A program made the position numbers and the translations under genes. A model generated the notes under the pieces. The model was not told where the DNA came from, did no database searches, and saw nothing but the letters and a program-made list of their open reading frames with translations. Of a DNA stretch of 14,446 nt, positions 864-13,350 are shown in pieces (position 1 is the first letter of the stretch; every line of letters begins with the position of its first letter). The DNA lies in the IMG/VR virus record IMGVR_UViG_3300013942_000056, positions 1 through 14,446 of that record. One strand, 5' to 3'. Source of the DNA: a virus (lineage: Duplodnaviria; Heunggongvirae; Uroviricota; Caudoviricetes).

Positions 864-1964
864 ATGAGCGAGTCCAAATCGCCGGATGCCCTGAGAGCAA
901 TGGTAGCCGGTACGCTGGCTAATTTTCAGCACCCAACCCTGAAACACAACCTGACTACGCTTAAAGCGTTACACCATGTTGCGTTGATGGATGACACACT
1001 GCATGTCGAACTAATCATGCCTTTCGTGTGGAATAAGCCTTTTGAAGACCTGAAAGAGCAATGTAGTGGTGATCTGCTCCGTATCACTGGAGCAAAGGCT
1101 ATTGACTGGAAGCTGTCGTACAACATTGCCACGCTTAAGCGCGTCAAAAACCAACCAGGCATTAATGGCGTTAAGAACATTATCGCCGTCAGCTCAGGCA
1201 AGGGCGGCGTGGGTAAATCCTCCACGGCGGTAAACCTGGCACTGGCGTTGGCTGCTGAAGGTGCGAAAGTTGGTATTTTGGATGCCGATATCTATGGTCC
1301 ATCAATTCCAAACATGCTGGGCGCGGAAAACCAACGTCCAACCTCACCTGACGGTACTCACATGGCACCTATCATGTCTCATGGCCTGGCAACCAACTCT
1401 ATTGGTTATCTGGTCACCGACGACAATGCAATGGTGTGGCGTGGACCGATGGCCAGCAAGGCGCTGATGCAGATGTTGCAGGAAACTCTATGGCCTGATC
1501 TGGACTATCTCGTTCTCGATATGCCGCCGGGCACTGGTGATATTCAGTTGACGCTGGCGCAGAACATTCCTGTAACTGGTGCGGTTGTGGTAACTACGCC
1601 GCAAGACATCGCGCTGATCGATGCGAAGAAAGGCATTGTGATGTTCGAAAAAGTCGAAGTGCCGGTACTGGGTATCGTCGAAAACATGAGTGTGCATATT
1701 TGCAGTAACTGCGGTCATCACGAGCCAATTTTTGGCACCGGTGGCGCACAGAAACTGGCCGAGAAATACAACACGCAGTTGTTAGGCCAAATGCCACTTC
1801 ATATCTCTCTTCGTGAAGATCTGGATAACGGAACACCAACCGTTATTAGTCGTCCAGATAGCGAATTTACGGCTATTTATCGTGACCTCGCAGATCGCGT
1901 TGCTGCCCAAATGTATTGGCAAGGTGAAGTAATACCTGGCGAAATCGCATTCCGCGCAGTGTGA
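864..1964 (+). CDS. apbC: Iron-sulfur cluster carrier ATPase Mrp/ApbC
   Basis: 366-aa ORF with AGGAG 7 nt upstream of ATG; Walker A GKGGVGKS; Mrp/NBP35-type CxxC (CSNCGHH); near-identity over long stretches to E. coli Mrp as recalled; divergent from metG as in E. coli. Confidence 0.93.
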   Translation: MSESKSPDALRAMVAGTLANFQHPTLKHNLTTLKALHHVALMDDTLHVELIMPFVWNKPFEDLKEQCSGDLLRITGAKAIDWKLSYNIATLKRVKNQPGINGVKNIIAVSSGKGGVGKSSTAVNLALALAAEGAKVGILDADIYGPSIPNMLGAENQRPTSPDGTHMAPIMSHGLATNSIGYLVTDDNAMVWRGPMASKALMQMLQETLWPDLDYLVLDMPPGTGDIQLTLAQNIPVTGAVVVTTPQDIALIDAKKGIVMFEKVEVPVLGIVENMSVHICSNCGHHEPIFGTGGAQKLAEKYNTQLLGQMPLHISLREDLDNGTPTVISRPDSEFTAIYRDLADRVAAQMYWQGEVIPGEIAFRAV

Positions 1965-1965
1965 T

Positions 1966-1989
1966 AAAAAGGCGGTGCATTGCACCGCC
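1966..1989. terminator. Bidirectional intrinsic terminator hairpin between mrp and the UmuD'-like gene
   Basis: AAAAA then GGCGGTGC (1971-1978), loop ATT, GCACCGCC (1982-1989); on the minus strand the hairpin is followed by TTTTTAT, so it is the better terminator for the minus-strand gene ending at 2002. Confidence 0.7.
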
Positions 1990-2001
1990 TAATCAGTTCT
2001 C

Positions 2002-2391
2002 CTACATCACGGGACAATCATCAAACTCGCCACTTCTTGCGTCGTTGATAATGTGAGTGATCACACCAAACACGGCATTGCTGCCCGTGCATCCATCGTC
2101 ATCCTTTGGCAATGCTTCCTTCTTACCGGTTCTTAAATCCTCCAGATGCTGACGTGGATACTTCCGGTATCTTTTTACGCGATATTCCCCATCCAGAGCG
2201 CATACAAGCAGAGAACCATCAACCGGGGTAAGTGAGGAATCGACCACCAGCAATGCACCCTGTAATATTCCCTCACGATGATGACTATCAGCTGCCCTCA
2301 TGAAGTAGGTCGCTGAAGGATGTCTAATTATCTGCTGATCAAGAGAAATACGGCTCTCAGCATAATCCGCCGCAGGAGAAGGGAAGCCCAT
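2002..2391 (-). CDS. UmuD'-like (HumD-type) S24 LexA-family peptidase lacking the N-terminal cleavable arm
   Basis: 129 aa beginning MGFPSPAADY, matching UmuD from its Cys24-Gly25 cleavage region onward (UmuD has GFPSPAADY); conserved Ser (AADSHHREG) and Lys (EYRVKRY) catalytic dyad positions; perfect SOS box directly upstream. Confidence 0.8.
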   Translation of the reverse strand: MGFPSPAADYAESRISLDQQIIRHPSATYFMRAADSHHREGILQGALLVVDSSLTPVDGSLLVCALDGEYRVKRYRKYPRQHLEDLRTGKKEALPKDDDGCTGSNAVFGVITHIINDARSGEFDDCPVM

Positions 2392-2407
2392 AATACTCGC
2401 CTCTTAA

Positions 2408-2452
2408 TACTGTATATACATACAGTATATGTTGAAGCTATATATTTTTGAA
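2408..2452 (-). promoter_or_regulatory. LexA (SOS) box overlapping a sigma70-like promoter of the UmuD'-like gene
   Basis: TACTGTATATACATACAGTA at 2408-2427 (CTGT-N8-ACAG palindrome, one centre mismatch to the consensus as recalled). Minus-strand reading gives -35 TTCAAA (plus 2447-2452), 17-nt spacer, -10 TATACT (plus 2424-2429) overlapping the box. Confidence 0.8.
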
Positions 2453-2722
2453 CTCTATCTCTTAAAAAAGATGTTAATAAGATGCTAACTATTGAAAGGC
2501 ATAAATATATACAATTCCAACAAACGTTATTTTTAACAAATTTTTTCTCTCTGTTGACTTTTGCGAAAGCCTTGTCTGGCCTAAATTGCGCGGAAGCTAC
2601 TTTTTCCTTCCTGAGTTATCCACAGAGTTATGCACTTGCATGCATAACCTATACACACTATCTTAATTCGCAAGACACTGATGTTGCGGTATTGAAGGTT
2701 CATTGGGTTAAAAATAGACATT

Positions 2723-2753
2723 AAAAAGCCCAGTTGACTAGGCTGGGCTTTTT
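2723..2753. terminator. Bidirectional intrinsic terminator-like hairpin
   Basis: AAAAAGCCCAG (2723-2733), 9-nt loop, CTGGGCTTTTT (2743-2753); perfect 11-bp complementarity with A/T runs on both sides. Confidence 0.55.
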
Positions 2754-3053
2754 AAAAGGAAACAGAGTTTGCGGCTCTGTTCCTGAGCCATAAGTATCTG
2801 GCGACTGAATTAAGATTAACCGAATGTACTGGATTCATCAAGAAACGTTGAGTGGTCATACCAGGTAATAATGACCATTTACTAAACATCGTTGTTCTCA
2901 AAGAAGATTTAAGTCCAGGTTTTTGGTGACTCTAAAACCTTACCTTAACTCGAAATCGTGCCGTAAGTATCTGGCGACTACAGATATTGCAACTGCAAAG
3001 GCAAGCCCAAAGGTATTTGCAGCTAGGCGCGATAAAACTAAGTGAGGCCTGTT

Positions 3054-3137
3054 ATGGTTAACTTACTGTTCAAAATCGTGCCGCCGATGTTCGCGATTAT
3101 CAAAGCGATCATTGAGTACGTAAACCAGCGTCCATAA
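3054..3137 (+). CDS. Putative 27-aa hydrophobic peptide MVNLLFKIVPPMFAIIKAIIEYVNQRP
   Basis: ATG preceded by GAGG at 6-nt spacing; stop TAA at 3135-3137; strong hairpin terminator 14 nt downstream; below the ORF-track size cutoff. No homolog recognised. Confidence 0.3.
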   Translation: MVNLLFKIVPPMFAIIKAIIEYVNQRP

Positions 3138-3150
3138 CGCTAGTTGCTAC

Positions 3151-3175
3151 AGGCCCCATCAAGAGCATGGGGCCT
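3151..3175 (+). terminator. Intrinsic terminator hairpin after the small ORF
   Basis: AGGCCCCAT (3151-3159), loop CAAGAGC, ATGGGGCCT (3167-3175), then CTTTAT on the plus strand. Confidence 0.6.
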
Positions 3176-3192
3176 CTTTATCGTACTATTGC

Positions 3193-3819
3193 TTATTTTT
3201 TACGGACTGAGTTGTTCACTGCTCTGGCAATCTTCTCCCGCAATTGCTGCGTTCCGTGGTACTGAACCGCAATATCTCTCAACTCGTTCACCAGTTCTCG
3301 AATCTGGTGATCTTTAAGCTCATTATTTGGGTGATTGGTAACAACTCTGGTTAATTCACCCTTGTCTTTTGCTCTTACGTATGCAGCTCTTGTGCATTCG
3401 ACCCATGTATTACCGCCTACATTAACTTCGTAGATTAGGCTGGACTTATCTGTCAATTCGGAACAAATACGGGCCGTGGTCTGGCAACTAGAGCATTCGC
3501 AGTTATCGCGGAAACCGTGATCTACCGGTCGAGAAAGAGGTTTAACTTTTTCATCCAACTTCATCACAGCATCGTGATAAGCGTTCCAGCCGTCATCTTT
3601 ACCAAGTTGATAAATCTCTGAAGGCTCCATGTAGTCTATATCGCAACCTTCTTCATCCGATCTATCTGGTCGCTTCCCTGGTAATCGCTCATAAAAACAA
3701 TTTCTGTCTCGACGTTCGGCTCTCAGTGCTAACGCAAGAAGTTGCTCAAGCGAGGTATTTGCACCAGCAATAATTTCATTGAGAATATCTTCTGTGAGAT
3801 CTTTCGCTACCGTGCTCAT
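3193..3819 (-). CDS. Hypothetical phage protein (208 aa), last gene of the coupled minus-strand operon
   Basis: ATG start at 3819 forms an ATGA overlap with the stop of the upstream gene; Cys-rich stretch (CECSSC...C); no family recognised. Confidence 0.6.
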   Translation of the reverse strand: MSTVAKDLTEDILNEIIAGANTSLEQLLALALRAERRDRNCFYERLPGKRPDRSDEEGCDIDYMEPSEIYQLGKDDGWNAYHDAVMKLDEKVKPLSRPVDHGFRDNCECSSCQTTARICSELTDKSSLIYEVNVGGNTWVECTRAAYVRAKDKGELTRVVTNHPNNELKDHQIRELVNELRDIAVQYHGTQQLREKIARAVNNSVRKK

Positions 3820-4199
3820 TTATCTCTCTCAGTATGTTGCGATGGCGTAAATTTGACGACATCAAATATTTTGGATGGCATCAACTTTATCCGCGAGCTT
3901 AGTTCGGCTCTTCTCTGTAATGCGGTTAATAATGTTTTCGTTCTGACGCCTTCGTGTATCCTCATCCCTGGCACAAGAACTACATCGCAGGGGAGATGCT
4001 CAGGTGACAAATCATTTTGGGCATCGCTAATCAGTCGTGTAATCTCTCTTTCAAGCCGACCGCCTAGCTCTGTTTTAGTGCAATGTTCTGACCAATCGCC
4101 AGCCTCAAGCAGCGCGAGAATGCTTAAAATATCGTCCAATAGATCAGTGGTATTATCGACTTCCTTCTGAAACTCACCGGCTACTGATTTATGCATCAT
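3816..4199 (-). CDS. Hypothetical phage protein (127 aa)
   Basis: ORF with 4-nt overlaps to both neighbours (translational coupling). Confidence 0.55.
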   Translation of the reverse strand: MMHKSVAGEFQKEVDNTTDLLDDILSILALLEAGDWSEHCTKTELGGRLEREITRLISDAQNDLSPEHLPCDVVLVPGMRIHEGVRTKTLLTALQRRAELSSRIKLMPSKIFDVVKFTPSQHTERDK

Positions 4200-4849
4200 T
4201 CGTCATCCTCATCCGAGTCATCCTCATCACAGGATGAGAGTAGTGGGTTAGTCATTCGCCCTACTTGAGTGGCGTAGCCACGCCGACAGAGATTGCGCAG
4301 CACACTGTATATTTCGAACATCTCGGTTCGTTCATCGCCAACATCAAGCTCAGATGCTATAGCGTGGCATTCAGTCGCGAGAGCCGATATTTTCTGAAAT
4401 AACTCTGCATTATTCACTGTTCGACTCCTGCGGCGTTCTGGTAGTGGCATCCAGTGTGTGACATTGCTAATCAGACCATATTCATTAGTTTGAGGATGGT
4501 TGCCGTTATCGTCTCCGTATTTAAGACTCTCCATAAAGCCATAATGCCTATCACCATTAACGCTCACAAAGCCGTAATAAGCAGGTATAACGCCGATCTC
4601 ACACGTAACCAGTAAAGGAAAACTAGTTCTCCAATTTAGCTCGCCAATTACAGGCATTCGCTCACTACAGCTTATCCAACCATCCTTAGATGCGGCTGTA
4701 TTGGCATAGGCCTTACGGTGCTTCTGTAGCTCTGCTGCAATCGCTCTCACGACTTCAACTGGTGCCCTTGCAGCAAACTCAATGTTGGTGATCAGCTCAT
4801 TAAGATATTTCTCGCTTGGGTAGCATTTCTTATTGTTAACGGTGGTCAT
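4196..4849 (-). CDS. Phage protein, DUF551-like (217 aa) with acidic C-terminal tail
   Basis: Contains WISCSERMP ... THWMPLPE, recalled as typical of prophage DUF551 proteins; C-terminus DEDDSDEDDE; stop/start overlap with neighbours. Confidence 0.5.
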   Translation of the reverse strand: MTTVNNKKCYPSEKYLNELITNIEFAARAPVEVVRAIAAELQKHRKAYANTAASKDGWISCSERMPVIGELNWRTSFPLLVTCEIGVIPAYYGFVSVNGDRHYGFMESLKYGDDNGNHPQTNEYGLISNVTHWMPLPERRRSRTVNNAELFQKISALATECHAIASELDVGDERTEMFEIYSVLRNLCRRGYATQVGRMTNPLLSSCDEDDSDEDDE

Positions 4850-5034
4850 TAGGCAGCTCTCTCAACAACAAGCAATTCGTCGTAGTCATAATCAGTTTCG
4901 GAACCATCCGTACCGAACAGAGTCACTTTGTCATTTTCCATCCAAAAAGATTTAACCGCACATTGTTGACCTTTAGATGTTATGAGCACATCACCAGGGA
5001 TTACGTCTTCAGCGCGAACCTCTAGTGTTCTCAT
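4849..5034 (-). CDS. Hypothetical small phage protein (61 aa)
   Basis: ATG start at 5034 in ATGA overlap with upstream stop; its own stop overlaps the next start (TAATG). Confidence 0.45.
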   Translation of the reverse strand: MRTLEVRAEDVIPGDVLITSKGQQCAVKSFWMENDKVTLFGTDGSETDYDYDELLVVERAA

Positions 5035-5561
5035 CGTGCTGCCCCCTCTTTGGTGAAAATGCCTGCTGCAATGCTGTTTATGATGCTGTCAGTGCATGGA
5101 GTAGAAAGCTGGGCATCTCCAGCAATTTTCATGACCTCAACATCCGCATATCGAATACCGAGGTGTATCAGACCGGCTATACCTGACTTAAGTCGAACAT
5201 TTTCCATAAACAGATCTTTTTCCCGCTGTTTAGCGGCTTCCAACTCCATCGACAATTTTTCCAACTGCTCTTTATGCTTCTTGTATTCCTGATACGCGTG
5301 CCAAGACTGACCTTTGCGCACACTATCAGCGATATCAGCAACCTGCTCTGGTGTTAGCGTGGTCAGTGGCTGTGATGGAAAAATCATCACTTGCCCGGCA
5401 TCCCAATCAAAACCCGCCTGAATTGACTGAACCTCAACTGATGGTGTTGAACCGATGCGACCAGGCGAATGAACAACGATCGTTACATCCATATCGCGAC
5501 GATGGCTGTGGTTGTTGGACAAAATACGATTCACCAACTCAGAAAATTTGGATAATTTCAT
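5031..5561 (-). CDS. Hypothetical phage protein (176 aa; start at MKLSKF)
   Basis: The internal ATG at 5561 gives an ATGA overlap with the stop of the upstream gene and has GGAGAGAAAGAGAGA upstream; the longer ORF-track extension to 5690 would overlap the upstream gene by 130 nt. Confidence 0.55.
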
Positions 5562-5881
5562 GCTGATCTCTCTTTCTCTCCCCGGATAATTCTGTTGCAC
5601 ACATCCACACACTCGTCGCAGATGAAAACGGCGTCCCCAGCAATTAACTTTTTGACGGCGTACTGGGATTTGTTGCAGAAGCTGCAACAAAGTGTTCGCC
5701 TGACTGATAAGGATGGAGCGCCAGATGTCAGCCGCTCCATATCGTTCTTGCGACGCAATATCACACGGCTGAACTCAACCAGTTTCTCCGGGGATATCTC
5801 CTCCTCCGTAGCGAGCGTCTCTAGTCGTTCGAGTATGTTGAAGGCTTTTTCTTGGGTAATAGCAGAGTGCGATGTGGTCAT
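5558..5881 (-). CDS. Phage protein with C-terminal ClpX-type C4 zinc-finger domain (107 aa)
   Basis: C-terminal [34 protein letters not shown] closely matches the ClpX N-terminal zinc-binding domain (E. coli ClpX has [34 protein letters not shown] as recalled). Confidence 0.7.
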
Positions 5882-6279
5882 TTTCTTTCACCTTCAATGT
5901 TCGTGGCGCTGGCAAGATTGTCCTTGCGAAGAAGAGCGGCTATGCGCTTACTTCCATCCGAGATAACGCCCTCGTAATACTCACGCTGCTCGTTGAGTTT
6001 TGATTTTGCCAACTCCAGTTGTTTTGTTAGTTCCGCAATACGGCAAACATCGTTGATACGCGTTTCCTCTAATGCGTTGATCTCATCCAGTAGTGCCAGC
6101 ACGGTTTCTGGTCCGGCCAGAAATTTGAAGGCGTTGAGGGCATCAATATCAACACCGCTATCTTTAAGTTCCTGTTCGCATATCAGATCATCATCAACTG
6201 GCAACATTAACAGGCGTTCCATTGCCGGAATTGCACGCTCTGCCGCCTCACGCAGTGCCTGATAGTCAATCTTGCTCAC
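5878..6279 (-). CDS. Ead/Ea22-like coiled-coil phage protein (133 aa), GTG start
   Basis: Start codon is GTG at 6279 with AAGGAG 7 nt upstream and a GTGA overlap with the upstream stop; [17 protein letters not shown]-terminus resembles Ea22-like proteins (from memory). Confidence 0.5.
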
Positions 6280-6776
6280 TGGATGACTCCTTTACGAAGC
6301 TGTTCAGCAATACTTACGCATATCTCTGCGCCTCTAATCAGCCCCGGAACGTTCTTGTTTGGCCCAACTTCACCATCAACAAAATCAATCATCGCGTTAC
6401 GAGCCATATCCACGCCCTGCGCACGTACTTCAGCCAGAAAAGCATCGGTGGCTGGAGTCTCCGTTAATTCGCTAACCCAATTATCTCCGTGTTCCTCGGC
6501 ACACATCGCATCGAATGCTCGCTCAGATTCTTTCAGGGCTGCATTCTCCGCCGCTAATGCGTCTCTCTGCGCTCGCAACTTCTCAATTTCGGCAGCCATG
6601 TAGTAACCAACCATAGCGAAAGTGGCGAAAGGGTAGTCAGAATCATCAGGAGATACGGAGGCCATTAGCAGACCATCGTGCATGTTCTGGCTTCCATCAG
6701 TGATGGATACCGCATAAGAATCGCTGGTTTCCCGTTTATACAATACGACGACCGGGTTCTTGATTTTCTCTCTCAT
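6276..6776 (-). CDS. Ea22-like phage protein (166 aa)
   Basis: ATG at 6776 overlaps the upstream stop (TAATG); contains ETPATDAFLAEVRAQGVDMARNAMIDF, similar to a motif recalled from Ea22-like prophage proteins. Confidence 0.5.
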   Translation of the reverse strand: MREKIKNPVVVLYKRETSDSYAVSITDGSQNMHDGLLMASVSPDDSDYPFATFAMVGYYMAAEIEKLRAQRDALAAENAALKESERAFDAMCAEEHGDNWVSELTETPATDAFLAEVRAQGVDMARNAMIDFVDGEVGPNKNVPGLIRGAEICVSIAEQLRKGVIQ

Positions 6777-7318
6777 TACGATGCCTCTAACTTATCTAAC
6801 TCTTTCAGCCCTTCACGTACCGCGTTCACAATGCGTTCCAGATACTGGTATTTCGGGTTTGGTACCGTTGGCCAGTCGGCATACCACGGATCATCACCAA
6901 AGAGATTCAGCAGTTTGTTACCGACGCCGAAACAACAGCAGCTTTCTTTTACGTCATCGGTGTTTTCCGCCTCGTCCCACATTTCACGAGCCAGTACGGC
7001 GTCGATTTCTCTCTCTCTTCGTAACTTTATGATTTCTGACTTCACGAAAAGCAGATTTGCATCGTTGTCATCGTCGACCGTGCTTCGCAGTTGAGAGTCG
7101 AAATAGCCGATTAGATACTCGTTGCTGACCCGCTTAATGAACGTCTGCACATCATCACCGCCCATAGCAAACCAAGCCGCAGTCCACGCTTTTCCGTAGC
7201 AGATGATGGTGATTCTTCCCTTACCAGGTTCGTAGTTTTCAATCATCACTCGAACCGGATCGAGGCGTTCCAGATCCGTCAGCACAAAGGAAAGAACATC
7301 TATTTTTTCGACCTTCAT
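6776..7318 (-). CDS. Hypothetical phage protein (180 aa; start at MKVEKI)
   Basis: The ORF-track start at 7330 is GTG; the ATG at 7318 forms an ATGA overlap with the stop of the HD-domain gene, so it is the preferred start. Confidence 0.55.
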   Translation of the reverse strand: MKVEKIDVLSFVLTDLERLDPVRVMIENYEPGKGRITIICYGKAWTAAWFAMGGDDVQTFIKRVSNEYLIGYFDSQLRSTVDDDNDANLLFVKSEIIKLRREREIDAVLAREMWDEAENTDDVKESCCCFGVGNKLLNLFGDDPWYADWPTVPNPKYQYLERIVNAVREGLKELDKLEAS

Positions 7319-7956
7319 GCAGCCTCCCACGCGCTCCAGATCAGCGATTTGTGTTTTTCATAACGTTTGATGTGTACCGGTTTCAGAAGCGCAATACCTT
7401 CAGTGACTTTCGCCATTGCGCTTAATAGCAACGGGTGTTCTATACCTATCCTCTCCATGTACTCGACAACATCAGCGTTGGCACCAATCTCTTTGCCGTG
7501 AAAGAGTACGTCCAGCATCAGTTCTTTCTCTGCGAGGTAGACAGCTGAAAACTCGGGATCGCGACTCACGATAGAAGAGGTATTGTCGAGCAGGTCAGCC
7601 AGCTTGATCATGCGCGTCTGCATGTCGAGATTTTGCTCCAGCTCCCGGACATTGATGATGAAACGCTGTATTCGATTGCCGTCTTCTGGCCTTGCAATGT
7701 TGGTCAGAGCCTGAACCATTTCAGCTACGCGCTCACCGAAGTGATCACGAACCATCTCTATGGTTACATGGGTGTCTTCGACCACATCATGCAGAAGCGC
7801 CGCGATTTGCATCTCCACGGTTCCGTCATGCAATGCAACAATCTCTCGGACAGCAACCGGGTGGTTGATGTAGTCTTCGCCGGTATATTTTCTTTTCTGA
7901 CCAACGCCACCATGAGCGCCAGCGGCGAACATATGAGCTTCGGAAATACTAGACAT
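7315..7956 (-). CDS. HD-domain (p)ppGpp hydrolase-like protein, SpoT/RelA hydrolase-type small alarmone hydrolase (213 aa)
   Basis: HPVAVREIV ... AALLHDVVEDT matches the His...HD...ED signature of the RelA/SpoT hydrolase domain; first gene after a terminator; ACGGAG RBS. Confidence 0.7.
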   Translation of the reverse strand: MSSISEAHMFAAGAHGGVGQKRKYTGEDYINHPVAVREIVALHDGTVEMQIAALLHDVVEDTHVTIEMVRDHFGERVAEMVQALTNIARPEDGNRIQRFIINVRELEQNLDMQTRMIKLADLLDNTSSIVSRDPEFSAVYLAEKELMLDVLFHGKEIGANADVVEYMERIGIEHPLLLSAMAKVTEGIALLKPVHIKRYEKHKSLIWSAWEAA

Positions 7957-8024
7957 TCTTAACTCCGTTGTTTTCTAGTTGTGGTTATTTTCACAAATAA
8001 GAAAAGGTAGAAAACAATTTATTT

Positions 8025-8045
8025 AAGGCCACAACTTATGGCCTT
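8025..8045 (-). terminator. Intrinsic terminator separating the MTase unit from the HD-domain operon
   Basis: AAGGCCA (8025-8031), loop CAACTTA, TGGCCTT (8039-8045); minus-strand downstream flank AAATAAATTGTTTTCT; sits 30 nt after the stop of gene 8076..8456. Confidence 0.6.
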
Positions 8046-8075
8046 TATTTATTCATGCCGAAGGATTTGTAGCGT

Positions 8076-8456
8076 CTAATTGCCGGATAAAATGGGGTGA
8101 GGTGCTTGCCAGTAGGCTCCACCGGTCCATGTGAACCCCATGCGAATAAGAGTGTTTATTGCGGCTTTGGTAGACTCCGATTCGACACTGGCTTTTCGAA
8201 ACTCTTGAACCTCTTTCGCCAACTTGTATGTAATTGTGCAGGGGACGATTGCAGCCCAGCCTTTCTCATGACTGTTAATGACCATCTGGATGTGACCATC
8301 CAGAATAGGTTGATTAGGCATGTTATTGAAAATGTCTGCCTGTTTTTGAATGTGAAGAAAAAGCCTTGCCAGCTCCATTTGCTCACTACGAGACAAGGGA
8401 TTATCAAGAGGGCTTTTTGCAAAAGCGGCTATACGCTGTGCGTCAATGCCAAACAT
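8076..8456 (-). CDS. Hypothetical protein (126 aa)
   Basis: ATG at 8456 overlaps the stop of the upstream gene (TGATG), indicating translational coupling; no family recognised. Confidence 0.55.
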   Translation of the reverse strand: MFGIDAQRIAAFAKSPLDNPLSRSEQMELARLFLHIQKQADIFNNMPNQPILDGHIQMVINSHEKGWAAIVPCTITYKLAKEVQEFRKASVESESTKAAINTLIRMGFTWTGGAYWQAPHPILSGN

Positions 8457-9160
8457 CAGCGCACCTCACCATCTTTATGGCTGGAGTTAACTTCCGCCAT
8501 TAAATGTCTGACGTAATCGACAAGAGAGCCACCTGGTGGAATCTGGCATTCCTCAACTAACTGGAAGTAGATATCCGCTGCATTACGTGTATTGCTACCC
8601 GCACATATTCTTTCTTCCCGAAGTGCATGAAGCTCGTTGATCAAACGGTCACACTCTCCGTTACGCTGATCCACAACGGCCTCAAGCTCTGCGACGCGTT
8701 CACCTGGCGTCTTACCTTCTTTGCGTTGGATGGTAACGACGAAATCGCCAATTGCAGGGACGTTGTAATCCAGCTCAAGGTAGTTTTTGGCACCGCTGCG
8801 GACGAACTCACCCGCGAACATGGTGGCGAACATCGCAGAGGCCACTTCGCCGTTGAAAAGTGACTCCAGATCTAACGGAGTCCCGGCATCAAGAGCCTCT
8901 TTTGCTGTATCCATTGCATCCATGAACCGATCAAACTCATTGGCGCGCTTTTCCAGGTTTTTCCATTGCTCGCTCCAACGTTTGGCAACGAAGTCTATGA
9001 ATGTTTTCGCGGATTCATCAAAATCCCCCTCAAACTTAACGATGCCTTTATCAATAATGATCTGGCCTACCGCATCCTCTGCATAACCTTTCAATGTAAA
9101 CTTGAAAGGAAAATCAGAATGGCCTGTGACGTTAAAATGCTCTAACTGGAGGTTGTTCAT
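8456..9160 (-). CDS. Hypothetical protein (234 aa)
   Basis: ATG at 9160 preceded by AGAGAAAAACAC, the same leader type found at two other genes in this block; no family recognised. Confidence 0.55.
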   Translation of the reverse strand: MNNLQLEHFNVTGHSDFPFKFTLKGYAEDAVGQIIIDKGIVKFEGDFDESAKTFIDFVAKRWSEQWKNLEKRANEFDRFMDAMDTAKEALDAGTPLDLESLFNGEVASAMFATMFAGEFVRSGAKNYLELDYNVPAIGDFVVTIQRKEGKTPGERVAELEAVVDQRNGECDRLINELHALREERICAGSNTRNAADIYFQLVEECQIPPGGSLVDYVRHLMAEVNSSHKDGEVR

Positions 9161-9203
9161 GTGTTTTTCTCTTATCGTTTAGTAACTACATTCTTACACA
9201 AAT

Positions 9204-9221
9204 TAGGTAAGTATTTACCTA
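9204..9221 (-). terminator. Weak AT-rich hairpin immediately after the MTase stop (possible attenuator)
   Basis: TAGGTAA (9204-9210), loop GTAT, TTACCTA (9215-9221), abutting the stop codon at 9222-9224. Confidence 0.3.
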
Positions 9222-10907
9222 TCATTTAACGCGTTTGAAAACGTATACGCTGACTGTGATCCCTGTGTCTTCAAACTCGTTGGTAAACGACTTCCCTCTG
9301 GCATAAACGTAATTATCCATCGTCATCCAGTCCAGTATTGGCGCAGTGCCCGGCAATACTGCTACAAGACGCCCGCCGACTTTCAGATGCCCCAGCGCAG
9401 CCAGCGTGTGCTCTCTATGACGACCAAGCGAGTACGGCGGGTTCATAACGATTTTGTCGAACTGATAACCTACGTTGTCCTCAGACCACTTTATGAAGTC
9501 GCAGCAAATCGTGTTCGTATACCCTTTTCCGCGCAGGATATCAGCGAAGAGAGGTGCGATTTCTATGCAGGTAACATCTTCCAGATCGGCGTTGATATAG
9601 GCCAGAAGATCCCCACGTCCGGCTTGAGGCTCCAGCAGCTTCTCACCAGACTTCAATTCAGTGGCTCTGGCAACGTACTCAGCAATCAAGCGTGGGGTAG
9701 GGTAGAACTGGTGTGATTTTGTATCCGGTATTAATCCGGTAGCCACAATCGTATTTAGCGTATGGCCGATCTCATACGGGAACTGCCAGTGCTTTTTCTC
9801 CTGCACGCCGCCAATGAAGCTCAGTGTGCGCTCAAGCTCTTCCACCTGCGACTTCTGGAGAGCTGAATCAGAGAAGTACCATACGCCTTTGTCTTTGCTT
9901 AATCGCCCGTCACGAAGCGCAGTGCGAACCGGCACGGAGATCGTCTTCTGGATTAACCCGAACTGCTTTGGTGCCCGTGTTTTTGGCGCGGTGCGACATG
10001 GCGCGGGGATTGCAGCAGGCATACTGTAAGCCAGCACCTCATTCAACTTCCAGGCCACGTCAGGATGTATTTCAAAGTGAACGTTGCCGTTCTTGAACAT
10101 CTTCACGCGCATTAGATTTCCATCGACGTTCATCCAGTCACCGGTCTGGCAGTCGTTTGCCCGATACGCAGCTGATAGCACCTCAGCAGTGCGGTTGATG
10201 GTAATAAATTCTTTGTGCGCGAAGAAATGAAGCAAGACACGCAGATCGTCGATATAGTCCTCTTTGCGATAGTTCACACTAACGCTGTCCCGCCAGAAAT
10301 CAGAAATGCAGTCAGCGATTATCAGACGTTCGCTGAAACCGTTTGTCTTATTTGTCTTGTGCGCAGGACTCAGCGCCTTAAACAAGCCATACACGCGCTC
10401 AGAGAGATATTTGTGCCTGTCATTCAGCAAATTAAGCATCGTGGGTATGACCGTTTCTGCTTTGAACTCCGGTACACCAACGAACTCTTTAACCTTCATC
10501 TGGTAGCCGGTTCTGTCAGTTTTGATGACTTCCTGTTTGCCCTCTATAAACTGCTCGCGCCACTCATCTCGACGGGAAGCTGGCATGATCAGCAAAACGT
10601 TAGTCATGTCCGTGACCTTCCTCCAGTACTCGGCCCAAATATTCTGTTTCACCCATTCCAGATCGACTTTATCCAACCAACCTCGATTTAAACGCGAGCG
10701 ATCTTCATCTGGTCGATGGTTTAGTCTCAGCAGGCGATTAATCATGTTGTGGCGTTCGTCGCCATAAACGAAGTCGTGTACCTGATACATGAAGGCGATC
10801 TCTTTCTCGCACTCGGCCACAATTTCGTGGATGACGTTCATTTCCTGCCGATAGTCGATAGCAGTGTTTGAGTTGGCATCGTCGATGATGGAAAGGGCTG
10901 TATTCAT
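9222..10907 (-). CDS. 561-aa protein: unknown ~400-aa N-terminal domain fused to a C-terminal gamma-type amino-methyltransferase domain (NPPY; probable N6-adenine DNA MTase)
   Basis: C-terminal region has the SAM-binding motif LEPQAGRGDLL followed about 50 aa later by KIVMNPPY, the order found in gamma-class N6-adenine MTases and HsdM; FYPTP precedes it. NPPY is also used by HemK/PrmC protein-glutamine MTases, so the target is inferred. Confidence 0.7.
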   Translation of the reverse strand: MNTALSIIDDANSNTAIDYRQEMNVIHEIVAECEKEIAFMYQVHDFVYGDERHNMINRLLRLNHRPDEDRSRLNRGWLDKVDLEWVKQNIWAEYWRKVTDMTNVLLIMPASRRDEWREQFIEGKQEVIKTDRTGYQMKVKEFVGVPEFKAETVIPTMLNLLNDRHKYLSERVYGLFKALSPAHKTNKTNGFSERLIIADCISDFWRDSVSVNYRKEDYIDDLRVLLHFFAHKEFITINRTAEVLSAAYRANDCQTGDWMNVDGNLMRVKMFKNGNVHFEIHPDVAWKLNEVLAYSMPAAIPAPCRTAPKTRAPKQFGLIQKTISVPVRTALRDGRLSKDKGVWYFSDSALQKSQVEELERTLSFIGGVQEKKHWQFPYEIGHTLNTIVATGLIPDTKSHQFYPTPRLIAEYVARATELKSGEKLLEPQAGRGDLLAYINADLEDVTCIEIAPLFADILRGKGYTNTICCDFIKWSEDNVGYQFDKIVMNPPYSLGRHREHTLAALGHLKVGGRLVAVLPGTAPILDWMTMDNYVYARGKSFTNEFEDTGITVSVYVFKRVK

Positions 10908-10947
10908 AATTGCACCATTAAGAAGTGATTTGTTTAATGGTGCAATT
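10908..10947 (-). promoter_or_regulatory. Perfect 14-bp inverted repeat over the MTase translation initiation region
   Basis: AATTGCACCATTAA (10908-10921), 12-nt spacer, TTAATGGTGCAATT (10934-10947); the left arm directly abuts the ATG at 10907, so the RBS lies inside the stem or operator. Confidence 0.55.
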
Positions 10948-11010
10948 ATTTCAAAAATGAAAAGGTACTAAATAGAAATAAACAGGCAATCCTTCAAATA
11001 AAGGCATTGG

Positions 11011-11625
11011 CTAATCATACTTGGAGGTATTTATCACCAGAATTTTGTTTGTATAAATCTTCTTAATATCCCATGTGACATTACCGGAATACCATTGACC
11101 GTTATATACTTGGTTTCCAGTTGCACCTGTCATTGTTACATAGACAGGTCTGTCGTAATCGGTTCGTCTATAGTTATATACCCCAACCATAGCAGGCATT
11201 ACCGCACATGGATACCCCATATCTATTGTAAATTGAGGGTCAGAAATAGTGATAAGTTTCGCATCAAGGGGCATCATCTCACCGTGATACACCATTGCGC
11301 CTGCGCTGTTATACATGGCAATGCCATAGCCAGAATGTGATAACACCATATCAGAAAAAGCATAAACTGTTATTGTTCCGGGGCTACCATTTACCTGATG
11401 CAATCTGAGAGCATTGTATCCGTTACTATGCTCATGAATAAACATCATGTTCGCCTTATTACTGCTTTTTATGAAGAAAAAGCATGATTTGTTTGATGGG
11501 ATTGATGTTTGAAAAACAGAACCTTTAGATGTAGACATTGTCCCTTTATTAATCAGATTTTGCGGAGTAAATTCTGGACTCATCCACAAACTTCCATCTG
11601 ATTGAGTAATTGACATCCCGAACAT
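11011..11625 (-). CDS. Hypothetical Tyr/Asn/Gly/Thr-rich protein (204 aa), AT-rich moron
   Basis: The ORF-track start at 11682 is TTG; the ATG at 11625 has GGGGA 6 nt upstream and lies 2 nt after the stop of the upstream 93-aa ORF; the region is visibly AT-rich relative to the flanks. Confidence 0.45.
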   Translation of the reverse strand: MFGMSITQSDGSLWMSPEFTPQNLINKGTMSTSKGSVFQTSIPSNKSCFFFIKSSNKANMMFIHEHSNGYNALRLHQVNGSPGTITVYAFSDMVLSHSGYGIAMYNSAGAMVYHGEMMPLDAKLITISDPQFTIDMGYPCAVMPAMVGVYNYRRTDYDRPVYVTMTGATGNQVYNGQWYSGNVTWDIKKIYTNKILVINTSKYD

Positions 11626-11627
11626 AA

Positions 11628-11909
11628 TTATCCCCAGTATGTGTATATGTAAGAACCAAGCCCCGTATATAAATTTGACCAACTAACCGTATTTCCATTA
11701 ATAGTAACTGTTGGAACAGGTAAATTAATGTAGTTGTCGTTGTTAAGAGGCATCAATGACCACACGGCATGTAGCGATTTACCCGGTGGCGGATTGGAGT
11801 ACGTCTTAGAGCCTGATGACGCAGTAAATCGATCAAGAAAAAAAATAGGAGTAAGGAAGCCAGTAACGTTAATTCCTTTATTGTTGTAAATCCCTGTACC
11901 GTATGCCAT
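11628..11909 (-). CDS. Hypothetical Tyr/Asn/Gly-rich protein (93 aa), AT-rich moron; possibly the N-terminal part of a frameshifted gene
   Basis: ATG at 11909 with AAGGA upstream; composition similar to the following ORF, which is in a different frame. Confidence 0.4.
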   Translation of the reverse strand: MAYGTGIYNNKGINVTGFLTPIFFLDRFTASSGSKTYSNPPPGKSLHAVWSLMPLNNDNYINLPVPTVTINGNTVSWSNLYTGLGSYIYTYWG

Positions 11910-11936
11910 TTTTCATCCTTGTTTTTTATCAACACA

Positions 11937-11960
11937 ATATGGCCGATCATGCGGCCATAT
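11937..11960 (-). terminator. Hairpin (8-bp stem) after the 189-aa gene; possible attenuator or operator
   Basis: ATATGGCC (11937-11944), loop GATCATGC, GGCCATAT (11953-11960), 4 nt after the stop codon at 11965-11967; the downstream flank is not T-rich. Confidence 0.35.
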
Positions 11961-11964
11961 CAGA

Positions 11965-12534
11965 TCAATTAGAGCTTTGAAAGGCTTTGTGTGGCTGTGT
12001 TGCGAGGTTATGTCGATGGCTTAACTCACGCATCATGTCTTCAAGCCGACTCTTTGTGTCGTCGAGTTGGTCGGCCATTGCTCCCAAAAGCTGACGAACG
12101 GCCATCGGATCATCGCTGTTTAGTGATGGCATTTTATAACCCGCCTGAGAAGACATAAGATTGAACGCAGACATCAACATCGTTAGAGAGGATTTAAGCC
12201 CAGCAATTTCACGATCTTTGCTGGCAATAATCGCCTCACTCTTGTTAGTGTCATCAGTTCGTTGAGTCTCGCTCACCATATCCAAAGTCGCCTGCAACTT
12301 ATCAGCGCGCTCTTTTTCAGCAAGATAATGAACACCGAAATGATGTGCTAAAGCTACAACCTGAGTTGGCTCTTCAAAGGTGGACTCAAAATTAAGTGCT
12401 GTAACCACTCTCTCAAATATGGAAACGTCTTCTATTCCTCGAAGAATGGCTAACATTTTGACCAGTTCATTAGCATCCATTTCTTCGAATAAGGCGTTTT
12501 GTTCATCAGCTATCGCTTTGCATTTCTTGCACAT
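11965..12534 (-). CDS. Hypothetical protein (189 aa)
   Basis: ATG at 12534 preceded by AGGAAAAACAC and the AGAAAACAACTTGTTT leader motif; no family recognised. Confidence 0.6.
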   Translation of the reverse strand: MCKKCKAIADEQNALFEEMDANELVKMLAILRGIEDVSIFERVVTALNFESTFEEPTQVVALAHHFGVHYLAEKERADKLQATLDMVSETQRTDDTNKSEAIIASKDREIAGLKSSLTMLMSAFNLMSSQAGYKMPSLNSDDPMAVRQLLGAMADQLDDTKSRLEDMMRELSHRHNLATQPHKAFQSSN

Positions 12535-12552
12535 GTGTTTTTCCTAATGCTT

Positions 12553-12568
12553 AAACAAGTTGTTTTCT
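12553..12568 (-). promoter_or_regulatory. Leader motif AGAAAACAACTTGTTT (palindromic core AAACAA-C-TTGTTT), copy 1
   Basis: Lies 18 nt upstream of the ATG at 12534; near-identical copy at 13281-13297 and partial copies at 7967-7976 and 13808-13822. Confidence 0.45.
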
Positions 12569-12649
12569 TATTGGCTTTATTGTGATGTGGCATAAAAGGG
12601 GAGCAAGCTAAACGTAAAGGTGCAAACTCTCTATTTCGGTCAACGAAAC

Positions 12650-12671
12650 ACAAGGGCCATTTGGCCCTTGT
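12650..12671 (-). terminator. Intrinsic terminator after the TerB / small membrane protein pair
   Basis: ACAAGGGCC (12650-12658), loop ATTT, GGCCCTTGT (12663-12671); 2 nt after the stop at 12674-12676; minus-strand downstream flank GTTTCGTTG. Confidence 0.55.
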
Positions 12672-12673
12672 CA

Positions 12674-12832
12674 TTAACACGTTGCTTTACGGACTAGCGG
12701 ATAAGCGAAGTAGATCGCCAGACCAATGAGGACGCCATCAGAAATGACAGACATCATCTTTCCCGTAAAATCCACCAACACCGCCATCACCAGAAGAGCA
12801 ATGACGGTCACAAGCCGGAATCTCTCAAGCAT
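12674..12832 (-). CDS. 52-aa two-helix membrane peptide translationally coupled to the TerB-like gene
   Basis: Minus-strand translation from the ATG at 12832 gives MLERFRLVTVIALLVMAVLVDFTGKMMSVISDGVLIGLAIYFAYPLVRKATC; the ATG overlaps the TerB-like stop (TAATG); two hydrophobic segments; terminator immediately downstream. Absent from the ORF track (below size cutoff). Confidence 0.5.
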   Translation of the reverse strand: MLERFRLVTVIALLVMAVLVDFTGKMMSVISDGVLIGLAIYFAYPLVRKATC

Positions 12833-13257
12833 TAGAGATAAGCATCCAGTGACAACTGAAGCGCCTGTGCGATCTTTTTCAGGGCCAGCTCTTCTTGTTC
12901 GCCAATACCGTCTTGGTCGGCAATATCAAGGCACAGACACAGTACATCTACTGCATCATTAGTCCCGGCCACATCAGCCAGCTCACGTAAAGCCTGGGCA
13001 TTAGCGCGGCGCGGTGAGGCTTCGTATTGAGCACGGATATTGGCGCTCATTTGGGCAATCTCACCAGCAAACGGAGAAAACGCAGGCAGAGCTGCAATTG
13101 TTTTCTCAAGAATGGAAATTTCCTTTGCGTCGCATGTGCCATCGGCATAGGAGATCATGTACGCGCCCCACACGGTGGCTTCAACCGCATCTCGGTTCTC
13201 CATTTTTTTGACCTCGATAACAGCTTTACGAGTTTTCTTTTTGAATAAACCTAACAT
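12832..13257 (-). CDS. TerB-like (tellurite-resistance TerB family) protein (141 aa)
   Basis: Two repeats of the TerB-like pattern: AYMISYADGTCDAKEISILEKTIAAL and LCLCLDIADQDGIGEQEELALKKIAQAL (compare TerB IAVASDGVSSEEK and IAVAKSDGNFDDDEKSAVREIALAL as recalled); AAGGAAAG RBS; leader motif upstream. Confidence 0.6.
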   Translation of the reverse strand: MLGLFKKKTRKAVIEVKKMENRDAVEATVWGAYMISYADGTCDAKEISILEKTIAALPAFSPFAGEIAQMSANIRAQYEASPRRANAQALRELADVAGTNDAVDVLCLCLDIADQDGIGEQEELALKKIAQALQLSLDAYL

Positions 13258-13280
13258 GTGCTTTCCTTTTGTTATTTGTT

Positions 13281-13297
13281 AAAACAAGTTGTTTTCT
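13281..13297 (-). promoter_or_regulatory. Leader motif AGAAAACAACTTGTTTT, copy 2, extended by further AACAA half-sites
   Basis: Minus strand reads CTAGAAAACAACTTGTTTTAACAAATAACAAAAGGAAAGCACATG: a 7-1-7 palindrome AAAACAA-C-TTGTTTT followed by two more AACAA repeats and the RBS. Confidence 0.45.
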
Positions 13298-13350
13298 AGT
13301 TACATGAATTGCTTACGAAAAGACGGTCAATGCATATGCACTAACAACCG

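What the first reader, a model, noticed from the sequence alone, without database searches (positions are those of the whole stretch)
7315..7956. Prophage-encoded SpoT-type HD-domain alarmone hydrolase at the head of a ten-gene coupled operon
The 213-aa protein carries the RelA/SpoT hydrolase signature (HPVAVREIV ... AALLHDVVEDT) without a synthetase domain, i.e. a small alarmone hydrolase. Phage-borne (p)ppGpp/(p)ppApp hydrolases are candidates for counteracting host alarmone-based stress or defence signalling (inference). It is the first gene after a terminator and leads a chain of genes joined by ATGA/TAATG/GTGA stop-start overlaps down to 3193.
Basis: partly seen in the sequence, partly recalled or inferred. 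Interest (0 to 1): 0.55.

Follow-up and report, generated by a model that had tools for sequence, protein, structure and literature searches.

The report
Phage-plasmid small alarmone hydrolase (PaSpo)
This gene is the E. coli phage-plasmid copy of an already studied phage enzyme, PaSpo of Salmonella phage SSU5, which strips 3'-pyrophosphates from alarmone nucleotides and from tRNA ends and so cancels RelA/SpoT-type toxins; it is real but not new.

Summary
The 213-aa ORF at 7315-7956 (-) is real and is a single-domain RelA/SpoT-family hydrolase. It matches Pfam HD_4 at 1.2e-18 and has no synthetase domain. All catalytic residues are kept. The AlphaFold model (pLDDT 97) matches MESH1, bacterial small alarmone hydrolases (SAHs) and SpoT/Rel hydrolase domains.

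The host element is an extrachromosomal SSU5-like phage-plasmid of about 110 kb, not an integrated prophage. In complete E. coli genomes the gene lies only on plasmids.

The protein is 87% identical over its full length, and in the same gene order, to SSU5_099. That is the only RSH-like gene of Salmonella phage SSU5, the source of the published 'PaSpo' SAH. PaSpo neutralises all five toxSAS toxins tested and is used routinely to detoxify FaRel2, PhRel2 and CapRel(SJ46).

The ten-gene chain of 4- or 1-nt overlaps is confirmed. The 'terminator' is a conserved hairpin without a proper U-tract, followed by a conserved promoter-like stretch. The SAH is an optional cassette: about 36-44 of 251 related E. 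coli plasmids carry this allele, and nonsense and deletion variants exist. No toxSAS partner is annotated on the element.

Its role in the phage-plasmid (counter-defence versus lowering ppGpp) remains untested. Verdict: already known; modest interest.

The parts
7315..7956 (-). Small alarmone hydrolase gene (PaSpo orthologue), 213 aa. The catalytic HD core is about aa 1-135 (nt 7552-7956). The clade-specific helical C-terminal part is aa 136-213 (nt 7318-7551).
   Evidence: ORF. Pfam HD_4 1.2e-18. TIGR00691 N-terminal region 1.4e-24. phrog_990 2.9e-55. 87% identity over 213/213 aa to SSU5_099. Residues R22, H32, H56, D57, E60, D61, D121 and N125 align to MESH1 R24, H35, H61, D62, E65, D66, D122 and N126. 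AF2 pLDDT 97 with Foldseek top hits MESH1/SAH/Rel/SpoT. dN/dS against SSU5 is 0.19 overall, 0.10 in the core and 0.30 in the C-terminal part.
7963..7966 (-). Shine-Dalgarno GGAG, 6 nt before the ATG.
   Evidence: Read directly from the sequence. Identical in SSU5.
7987..8017 (-). Promoter-like stretch: TTGTTT, 19 nt, then TGTGAAAAT (extended -10-like). Inference only.
   Evidence: Almost invariant between the window, SSU5 and the SAH-less plasmid pCTX, although the flanking coding DNA is about 10% diverged. Not reported by the consensus scan because the spacer is 19 nt.
8025..8045 (-). Conserved GC-rich hairpin between the upstream 126-aa gene and the SAH gene: a possible weak terminator, attenuator or RNA-processing site.
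   Evidence: intergenic fold -25.9 kcal/mol, z = -3.2. Stem kept with U-G / U-A / C-G at one pair across the window, pCTX and SSU5. No U-tract on the minus strand.
6776..7318 (-). Gene 2, 180 aa, phiTE_072 family (phrog_3451), ATGA-coupled to the SAH gene.
   Evidence: RefSeq and Pfam names. Pair conserved in SSU5 but not in more distant phage-plasmids.
6276..6776 (-). Gene 3, 166 aa, phrog_492, TAATG overlap.
5878..6279 (-). Gene 4, 133 aa, Ead/Ea22-like, GTGA overlap.
   Evidence: Pfam PF13935 5.4e-23.
5558..5881 (-). Gene 5, 107 aa, stand-alone ClpX C4 zinc-finger protein, ATGA overlap.
   Evidence: Pfam PF06689 1.2e-15.
5031..5561 (-). Gene 6, 176 aa (ATG start), phrog_6026/368, ATGA overlap.
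4849..5034 (-). Gene 7, 61 aa, phrog_15283, ATGA overlap.
4196..4849 (-). Gene 8, 217 aa, DUF551, TAATG overlap.
   Evidence: Pfam PF04448 1.4e-09.
3816..4199 (-). Gene 9, 127 aa, phrog_19524, 4-nt overlap.
3193..3819 (-). Gene 10, 208 aa, phrog_21749, ATGA overlap; last gene of the chain.
3151..3175 (.). 9-bp GC-rich hairpin just after the last gene of the chain. It has no U-tract on the minus strand.

Best explanation
The gene encodes a stand-alone small alarmone hydrolase (SAH) of the PaSpo subfamily of the RelA/SpoT-homologue superfamily. It is carried by an SSU5-like phage-plasmid of E. coli.

Proposed mechanism. A metal-dependent HD active site (His32, His56-Asp57, Asp121, with the Glu60-Asp61 catalytic pair, Arg22 and Asn125) cleaves the 3'-pyrophosphate from ribose. 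The substrates are (pp)pApp and (p)ppGpp nucleotides and tRNA 3'-CCA ends pyrophosphorylated by toxic small alarmone synthetases. This restores nucleotide pools and tRNA charging.

Shown here: the enzyme family, the intact catalytic set, the fold, orthology to SSU5 PaSpo, purifying selection, and the absence of an annotated toxSAS partner on the element.

Shown by others for the 87%-identical SSU5 protein: neutralisation of CapRel, PhRel, PhRel2, FaRel and FaRel2 in E. coli.

Inferred: this allele has the same activity. Its natural job would be to keep the phage-plasmid's replication or lytic growth safe from toxSAS-type abortive-infection systems such as CapRel, which are themselves carried by P1-like phage-plasmids in the same hosts. 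Lowering stringent-response alarmones would be a compatible side effect. The gene is expressed from a conserved hairpin and promoter-like slot that heads a variable accessory operon.
For: Family and active site.

Fold: model pLDDT 97, pTM 0.92. All 41 Foldseek PDB hits with E <= 1e-3 are RSH hydrolases: MESH1, the P. aeruginosa SAH, RelH, Rel, SpoT and Aph1.

Orthology: 87% identity over 213/213 aa to SSU5_099. Neighbours are similar: DUF4942 methyltransferase and small ORFs upstream, phiTE_072-family gene downstream. SSU5 has a single tblastn place for this protein.

Published function of SSU5 PaSpo: neutralises all five toxSAS tested (PMC7229694 Table 1). [quoted passage not shown] Used to detoxify PhRel2 and CapRel-SJ46. 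Other SAHs (MESH1, ATfaRel) restore aminoacylation of pyrophosphorylated tRNA in vitro.

Selection: dN/dS 0.19.

Stand-alone status: no RelA/SpoT synthetase is annotated anywhere on the identical-allele plasmid NZ_LR882992, and no conserved partner gene is found across relatives.

Plausible target in the same hosts: CapRel-SJ46 is on about 95-kb P1-like plasmids in 14 complete E. coli genomes, and the CapRel paper reports 100%-identical copies in E. coli prophages.
Against: No assay exists for this allele. The direct in vitro tRNA-repair data are for MESH1 and ATfaRel, not PaSpo.

No infection-level experiment showing that a phage SAH overcomes a toxSAS defence was found in the searched library.

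The gene is dispensable. Only 36-44 of about 251 E. coli plasmids with the marker methyltransferase carry this allele at the DNA level. A Y140* nonsense allele is widespread. Deletion fusions and an HD-to-HG variant exist.

There is no strain overlap between SAH-positive and CapRel-SJ46-positive complete genomes, but the expected overlap is only about 0.1, so this is uninformative.
Confidence: 0.8

Rival explanations
1. Suppressor of the stringent response. The main substrate in nature is host (p)ppGpp. By degrading it, the phage-plasmid prevents the growth-restrictive state that limits phage replication, or tunes plasmid copy number and lysogen physiology, with no toxSAS involved.
For: The closest solved relatives by sequence are (p)ppGpp hydrolases: SpoT 1.7e-13, Rel 5.4e-13, MESH1 1.7e-12. 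High (p)ppGpp slows T7 infection and (p)ppGpp0 hosts are more permissive to many phages (bioRxiv 10.64898/2026.01.27.700999). The gene sits in a long co-directional block of replication and nucleotide-metabolism genes (nrdAB, thyA, dfrA51, rnhA, dam). SAH homologues in other phages also lie in early or replication modules.
Against: No measurement of (p)ppGpp hydrolysis by PaSpo was found in the papers read. The published phenotypes are toxSAS neutralisation, including toxins that make no alarmone. This reading does not exclude the main explanation.
Confidence: 0.3
2. Lysogen-benefit immunity. The enzyme protects the carrier bacterium from (p)ppApp-producing toxins delivered between bacteria (Tas1-type T6SS effectors, MuF-type toxins, exported alarmone synthetases) by degrading (p)ppApp.
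For: SSU5 PaSpo neutralises the (pp)pApp synthetase FaRel. The fold also matches the (p)ppApp hydrolase Aph1 (7smg). SAHs are discussed as self-resistance factors against toxic alarmone synthetases (abstracts).
Against: Similarity to Aph1 is much weaker (2e-06) than to SpoT or MESH1. No lysogeny-specific regulation is evident. No data show expression in the plasmid state.
Confidence: 0.1
3. Non-alarmone 3'-phosphatase. Like metazoan MESH1, the enzyme mainly dephosphorylates NADPH, CoA or PAPS-type metabolites and reprograms host metabolism.
For: The best Foldseek hits are MESH1 complexes with NADPH and PAPS. MESH1 is reported as an NADPH phosphatase and a CoA phosphatase. A bacterial orphan SAH is reported as metabolically promiscuous (PMC9765508).
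Against: The orthologue's demonstrated phenotype is toxSAS neutralisation. Identity to MESH1 is only 26-28%.
Confidence: 0.05
4. Antitoxin of a cognate toxSAS on the same element, i.e. a type IV-like SAH antitoxin as in the C. marina faRel locus.
For: SAH antitoxins exist (ATfaRel).
Against: No RelA/SpoT synthetase gene lies next to the SAH in the window. None is annotated in the whole 109-kb plasmid or beside homologues in other elements.
Confidence: 0.03

Closest known systems
PaSpo(SSU5): small alarmone hydrolase of Salmonella phage SSU5 (SSU5_099, YP_006906731)
   Same: Same length (213 aa), 87% identity with no gaps, identical catalytic residues, and the same hairpin/promoter-like leader. 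The downstream phiTE_072-family gene and the upstream DUF4942 methyltransferase block are also shared.
   Different: 27 substitutions, concentrated in the C-terminal third. The host is E. coli rather than Salmonella. The genes further downstream in the operon differ. This allele has not itself been assayed.
PbcSpo SAH of Salmonella phage PVP-SE1
   Same: A stand-alone phage-encoded SAH that neutralises all tested toxSAS toxins.
   Different: A different SAH subfamily, from a virulent phage rather than a phage-plasmid. Not compared by sequence here.
ATfaRel, the SAH antitoxin of the Cellulomonas marina faRel locus
   Same: A single-domain RSH hydrolase that promiscuously neutralises toxSAS products and restores aminoacylation of pyrophosphorylated tRNA.
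   Different: It is encoded inside a three-gene toxin-antitoxin operon next to its toxSAS. The window gene has no such partner.
MESH1 (HDDC3), human and Drosophila
   Same: Same fold (TM up to 0.83 normalised to MESH1) and the same metal-binding and catalytic residues. MESH1 also rescues FaRel2 toxicity.
   Different: 26-28% identity. Metazoan, with NADPH, CoA and PAPS phosphatase roles. About 35 aa shorter, lacking the C-terminal helices of the phage-plasmid clade.
Hydrolase (HD) domain of long RSH enzymes SpoT and Rel
   Same: Best sequence matches in the PDB (7qps 1.7e-13, 5xnx 5.4e-13). TIGR00691 positions 1-123 are matched.
   Different: Those proteins carry synthetase, TGS and ACT regulatory domains. 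The window protein is the hydrolase domain alone.
Aph1 (p)ppApp-specific hydrolase (7smg)
   Same: HD-domain 3'-pyrophosphohydrolase, a recognisable but distant relative (2e-06).
   Different: Much weaker similarity, shorter (about 145 aa), and reported as specific for (p)ppApp.

Membership tests
RelA/SpoT-homologue (RSH) hydrolase domain | Significant match to the RSH-type HD domain profile (Pfam HD_4 / TIGR00691 N-terminus) | tested here: met
   HD_4 1.2e-18, 67.8 bits against a cutoff of 27.2. TIGR00691 positions 1-123, 1.4e-24.
RelA/SpoT-homologue (RSH) hydrolase domain | Metal-binding His...His-Asp...Asp set plus the Glu-Asp catalytic pair, conserved Arg and Asn (MESH1 R24, H35, H61, D62, E65, D66, D122, N126; residue roles from my own knowledge of the MESH1/RelSeq structures) | tested here: met
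   R22, H32, H56, D57, E60, D61, D121 and N125 align to those positions. They are invariant or at least 90% conserved in 47 homologues.
RelA/SpoT-homologue (RSH) hydrolase domain | All-helical HD fold superposable on solved RSH hydrolases | tested here: met
   AF2 pLDDT 97. Foldseek hits are MESH1, SAHs, Rel and SpoT with probability 1.00 and TM up to 0.83 normalised to the target.
Small alarmone hydrolase (single-domain RSH) | Hydrolase domain only: no synthetase (RelA_SpoT), TGS or ACT domains | tested here: met
   213 aa. Only HD_4 and HD are found in Pfam. The whole chain folds as one helical domain.
PaSpo subfamily (Atkinson 2011; Jimmy 2020) | Orthology to a classified reference member (SSU5 PaSpo) | tested here: met
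   87% identity over 213/213 aa with shared gene order. SSU5 has one RSH-like locus only. The papers name the SSU5 SAH as PaSpo.
PaSpo subfamily (Atkinson 2011; Jimmy 2020) | Best hit to the authors' subfamily HMM, or placement in their phylogeny | not testable with these tools
   The subfamily HMMs and supplementary tables are not held.
PaSpo subfamily (Atkinson 2011; Jimmy 2020) | Neutralises toxSAS toxicity; hydrolyses 3'-pyrophosphorylated nucleotides or tRNA | not testable with these tools
   Experimental. Shown for the SSU5 orthologue, not for this allele.
SAH antitoxin of a toxSAS toxin-antitoxin operon (ATfaRel type) | Encoded next to a toxic small alarmone synthetase gene | tested here: not met
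   Neighbours have no RelA_SpoT domain. None is annotated on the whole plasmid or beside homologues.
Known anti-phage defence system component (PADLOC) | Match to a PADLOC-DB model | tested here: not met
   No PADLOC hit for the SAH or its operon neighbours. Only the upstream methyltransferase hits methyltransferase models.

The most novel reading that the evidence does not exclude
In its native setting the SAH is a dedicated counter-defence 'tRNA repair' enzyme in a conflict between phage-plasmid families. SSU5-like elements would use it to erase tRNA 3'-CCA pyrophosphorylation by CapRel-type fused toxSAS systems, which P1-like phage-plasmids such as SJ46 carry in the same enterobacterial hosts. 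It would be one interchangeable cassette in a conserved hairpin/promoter 'slot' that different lineages fill with different anti-defence genes. No infection-level test of any phage SAH was found in the searched literature, so this remains open.
Probability: 0.3. Interest if true: 0.55.

Novelty: already known. Interest (0 to 1): 0.25.

Why it matters
The enzyme class and the idea that phages carry it to cancel alarmone-type toxins were published in 2020, and the SSU5 orthologue is now a routine laboratory tool. This window therefore adds no new kind of system.

What remains useful:
- The native role of PaSpo-type hydrolases in phage-plasmids has not been tested during infection or lysogeny.
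- The gene is an optional cassette behind a conserved leader. It occurs as intact, nonsense, deleted and HD-to-HG alleles across clinically common E. coli, Salmonella and Klebsiella phage-plasmids, which also spread CTX-M and other resistance genes.
- That natural allelic series is a ready-made comparison set for asking whether the hydrolase affects host range, stability or resistance to toxSAS defences.

Tried and rejected
- Cognate toxSAS on the element. I read the full annotation of an identical-allele plasmid and the neighbourhoods of three diverged homologues. None was found, so the antitoxin reading is rejected.
- Conserved partner gene. The ATGA-coupled phiTE_072-family gene is shared with SSU5. 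The gene following the SAH in a 41%-identical relative is unrelated, and the Klebsiella type has the methyltransferase there instead. No obligate partner exists.
- Defence-system membership. PADLOC gave nothing for the SAH or its operon.
- RNA elements. Rfam at gathering thresholds and ARAGORN found nothing in the window.
- Operator or CRP site. The palindrome TTGTG-N8-CACAA (CRP-like TGTGA-N6-CCACA) at 7979-7996 is conserved in SSU5. One such match is expected by chance in about half of the shuffles. It occurs only once more on the whole plasmid, inside a gene. Its downstream half is lost in pCTX, where the upstream promoter-like part is kept. Not supported as a regulatory site.
- Co-occurrence with CapRel-SJ46 in complete E. 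coli genomes. 14 genomes carry CapRel-SJ46, 36 carry the full-length SAH, and no strain carries both. The expected overlap is about 0.1, so this is uninformative.
- Accession of the cloned PaSpo. The supplementary files of PMC7229694 are not held. Identity with SSU5_099 rests on it being the only RSH-like locus in SSU5.
- Canonical intrinsic terminator upstream. It is not met on the coding strand.
Full report

The window has an uninterrupted 213-codon ORF at 7315..7956 on the minus strand, with an ATG start, a TGA stop and GGAG six bases before the ATG. Its translation contains the quoted HPVAVREIV and AALLHDVVEDT strings.

Pfam places it in HD_4 (PF13328, 1.2e-18, 67.8 bits against a cutoff of 27.2) and, more weakly, in HD (PF01966). 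No synthetase, TGS or ACT domain is found. NCBIfam matches only the first about 123 positions of the 687-position RelA/SpoT model.

The ten-gene chain is also real. With the correct ATG starts for 6776-7318 and 5031-5561, every junction from 7956 down to 3193 is a 4-nt (ATGA, GTGA or ATGATG-type) or 1-nt (TAATG) overlap.

The 'terminator' is the weakest part.
- A hairpin lies at 8025-8045.
- Its stem is kept across relatives. One pair is U-G in the window, U-A in plasmid pCTX and C-G in SSU5.
- On the coding strand it is followed by AAATAAATTGTTTTC rather than a U-tract.
- The consensus scan scored it as terminator-like only for the opposite strand.

**2. Where does the window come from?**

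Bases 1-14083 are 100% identical to about 110-kb E. coli plasmids such as CP057127. They are 96-98% identical to pECOH89 and to phages CMS-2020a, Cyrano and PhiR41_1.

These are SSU5-like phage-plasmids. The full annotation of a plasmid with an identical SAH allele (NZ_LR882992) shows:
- a RepB initiator and ParB partition genes;
- capsid, portal, terminase and tail genes;
- nrdAB, thyA, dnaE and three tRNA genes.

In 5,426 complete E. coli genomes the SAH gene is found in 44 genomes, all 46 places on plasmids and none on a chromosome. 'Prophage-encoded' is therefore right only in the sense of an extrachromosomal prophage.

**3. What is the protein?**

By sequence, every solved relative is an RSH hydrolase:
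- A. baumannii SpoT, 1.7e-13;
- M. tuberculosis Rel, 5.4e-13;
- human MESH1, 1.7e-12;
- Lmo0812, RelSeq and T. thermophilus Rel;
- the P. aeruginosa, C. glutamicum and Leptospira small alarmone hydrolases;
- more distantly, the (p)ppApp hydrolase Aph1, 2e-06.

The HMMER alignment to MESH1 pairs the catalytic residues as follows (the roles of these residues come from my own knowledge of the MESH1 and RelSeq structures):

| Window protein | MESH1 |
|---|---|
| R22 | R24 |
| H32 | H35 |
| H56 | H61 |
| D57 | D62 |
| E60 | E65 |
| D61 | D66 |
| D121 | D122 |
| N125 | N126 |

In an alignment of 47 homologues these positions are invariant or at least 90% conserved.

An AlphaFold2 model built on that alignment has mean pLDDT 97 and pTM 0.92 and is all-helical. 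All 41 Foldseek hits to the PDB with E <= 1e-3 are MESH1, SAHs, or Rel, SpoT and RelA hydrolase domains.

Compared with MESH1 and with 165-180-aa phage and bacterial homologues, the phage-plasmid clade carries extra C-terminal helices from about residue 155 to 213.

**4. It is the orthologue of a studied protein.**

The protein is 87% identical over all 213 residues, without gaps, to SSU5_099 of Salmonella phage SSU5. The two genes share:
- the leader region;
- the downstream ATGA-coupled phiTE_072-family gene;
- the upstream DUF4942 methyltransferase block.

SSU5 has only one locus that matches this protein by tblastn, so SSU5_099 is the 'SSU5 SAH (PaSpo)' of the literature.

What the literature shows for that protein:
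- Jimmy et al. 2020 showed that it neutralises all five validated toxSAS toxins: CapRel, PhRel, PhRel2, FaRel and FaRel2 (PMC7229694 Table 1).
[quoted passage not shown] Leaky expression is enough.
- It is used as a helper to overproduce PhRel2 and CapRel-SJ46.
- For two other SAHs, MESH1 and ATfaRel, restoration of aminoacylation of CCA-pyrophosphorylated tRNA was shown in vitro.

Between the window and SSU5 genes, dN/dS is 0.19 overall, 0.10 in the catalytic core and 0.30 in the C-terminal part. The gene is therefore under purifying selection.

**5. Context and how it is deployed.**

No RelA/SpoT synthetase is encoded next to the gene, and none is annotated anywhere on the plasmid. It is a stand-alone hydrolase, not an antitoxin of a local toxin.

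No partner gene is conserved across relatives.
- In Klebsiella-type elements (52% identity) the SAH lies upstream of the DUF4942 methyltransferase and overlaps the small gene before it.
- In a 41%-identical relative it is flanked by unrelated genes.
- In an unrelated 50-kb phage it sits among DNA polymerase, helicase and methylase genes.

Being 'head of the operon' is therefore a feature of the E. coli/Salmonella lineage only.

In that lineage the hairpin and the stretch TTGTTT-N19-TGTGAAAAT are almost invariant between the window, SSU5 and a plasmid that lacks the SAH (pCTX of strain J-8). Sequence downstream of that point differs. In pCTX the first gene after the leader is a recombinant of the window's genes 3 and 6.

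Eight further E. coli plasmids keep only the first 43 nt of the SAH gene. The methyltransferase marker is present in 251 E. coli genomes, while the SAH allele is in 44, of which 36 are full-length. The SAH is thus one optional cassette behind a conserved leader. The promoter reading of that leader is an inference.

**6. Mechanism and role.**

The best-supported mechanism is metal-dependent removal of the 3'-pyrophosphate. The substrates would be (pp)pApp and (p)ppGpp and toxSAS-modified tRNA CCA ends.

The enzyme family, active site, fold and orthology are shown here. The activity is shown by others for the 87%-identical protein. Transfer of that activity to this allele is inferred.

The biological role is open. 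Three readings were weighed:
- **Counter-defence against toxSAS abortive-infection systems.** This is plausible. CapRel-SJ46 is carried by P1-like phage-plasmids in the same hosts, in 14 complete E. coli genomes and always on plasmids of about 95 kb or more. The CapRel paper reports identical copies in E. coli prophages.
- **Lowering host (p)ppGpp.** This is a compatible rival, because the stringent response restricts phage growth.
- **Protection of the lysogen from (p)ppApp toxins, or MESH1-like metabolite phosphatase activity.** Both are less likely.

I found no infection-level test of any phage SAH in the searched library.

**7. Verdict.**

An identical protein (WP_021533175.1) is already annotated in RefSeq as 'HD domain-containing protein'. 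Its close orthologue has been characterised and is widely used.

Novelty: already known. Interest is modest (0.25). It rests on the untested native role and on the natural series of intact, nonsense, deleted and HD-to-HG alleles.

Noticed in passing
window 14084-14446: The last 363 bases are 67.5% GC, against 46.5% for the rest. They encode the N-terminal part of a Met-tRNA formyltransferase-like protein on the minus strand. No plasmid or phage match extends beyond 14083. This looks like a chimeric junction or assembly artefact in the intergenic region before rnhA.
   Followed up: partly
L012 4001-4642 (Salmonella-type SSU5-like element); protein P0011: A Y140* nonsense allele (TAC to TAG) splits the SAH into 139-aa and 67-aa ORFs. 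It is very widespread: 263 index blocks, mostly contigs of about 110 kb. Y140 is at least 90% conserved in the family, so this allele is probably impaired.
   Followed up: partly
proteins P0009, P0010, P0012 (homologues from other phage-plasmids): P0010 fuses a P-loop ATPase N-terminus to the SAH from the EDT motif onward. P0012 fuses the N-terminus of the upstream 234-aa protein to SAH residue about 76 onward. Both lose H32, H56 and D57. P0009 (62% identity) has HG in place of the HD dyad. These are natural loss-of-function or repurposed variants.
   Followed up: no
window 7979-7996: A perfect palindrome TTGTG-N8-CACAA, which matches the CRP consensus TGTGA-N6-TCACA at 9 of 10 positions, overlaps the putative -10 and start site of the SAH operon and is identical in SSU5. 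It is not statistically unusual, and its downstream half is not kept in pCTX.
   Followed up: yes
window 5558-5881 (-): A 107-aa protein consists of a short N-terminal region plus a stand-alone ClpX-type C4 zinc finger (Pfam 1.2e-15). It could mimic or compete with the ClpX substrate/adaptor-binding domain.
   Followed up: no
window 2012-6467: The distal part of the operon and the umuD/humD-like S24 peptidase gene are 85-90% identical to P1-like phage-plasmids (P1, D6, RCS47, SJ46, P7). Accessory genes are therefore exchanged between SSU5-like and P1-like families.
   Followed up: no
window 8456-9160 (-) and 6776-7318 (-): The N-terminus (aa 13-101) of the 234-aa protein upstream of the SAH and the whole 180-aa protein downstream hit adjacent halves of one PHROG profile: phrog_3451 positions 13-101 and 105-282. 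The two proteins are not similar to each other. Either an ancestral gene was split by insertion of the SAH-containing segment, or the PHROG includes a fusion.
   Followed up: partly
window 1-1964; L009 20020-20548: The phage-plasmid carries its own metG (5' end at the window start, minus strand) and apbC/mrp (864-1964, +). Elsewhere it carries tRNA-Ser, tRNA-Thr and tRNA-Asn genes. FaRel2 is reported to target tRNA-Gly and tRNA-Thr, so the tRNA genes and the SAH could be complementary protections of translation. This is speculative.
   Followed up: no
window 2392-3192: About 800 bp of low-GC (0.38-0.44), apparently non-coding DNA lies between the end of the operon and the S24 peptidase gene. 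In plasmid pCTX an ISKox3 element sits in this interval. There is no Rfam hit.
   Followed up: no
window 11011-11909 (-): Two low-GC (about 0.39) ORFs of 223 and 93 aa upstream of the DUF4942 methyltransferase have no Pfam hit. They are absent from the F8111 plasmid, but similar-sized ORFs occupy the same position in pCTX. This is another variable cassette.
   Followed up: no
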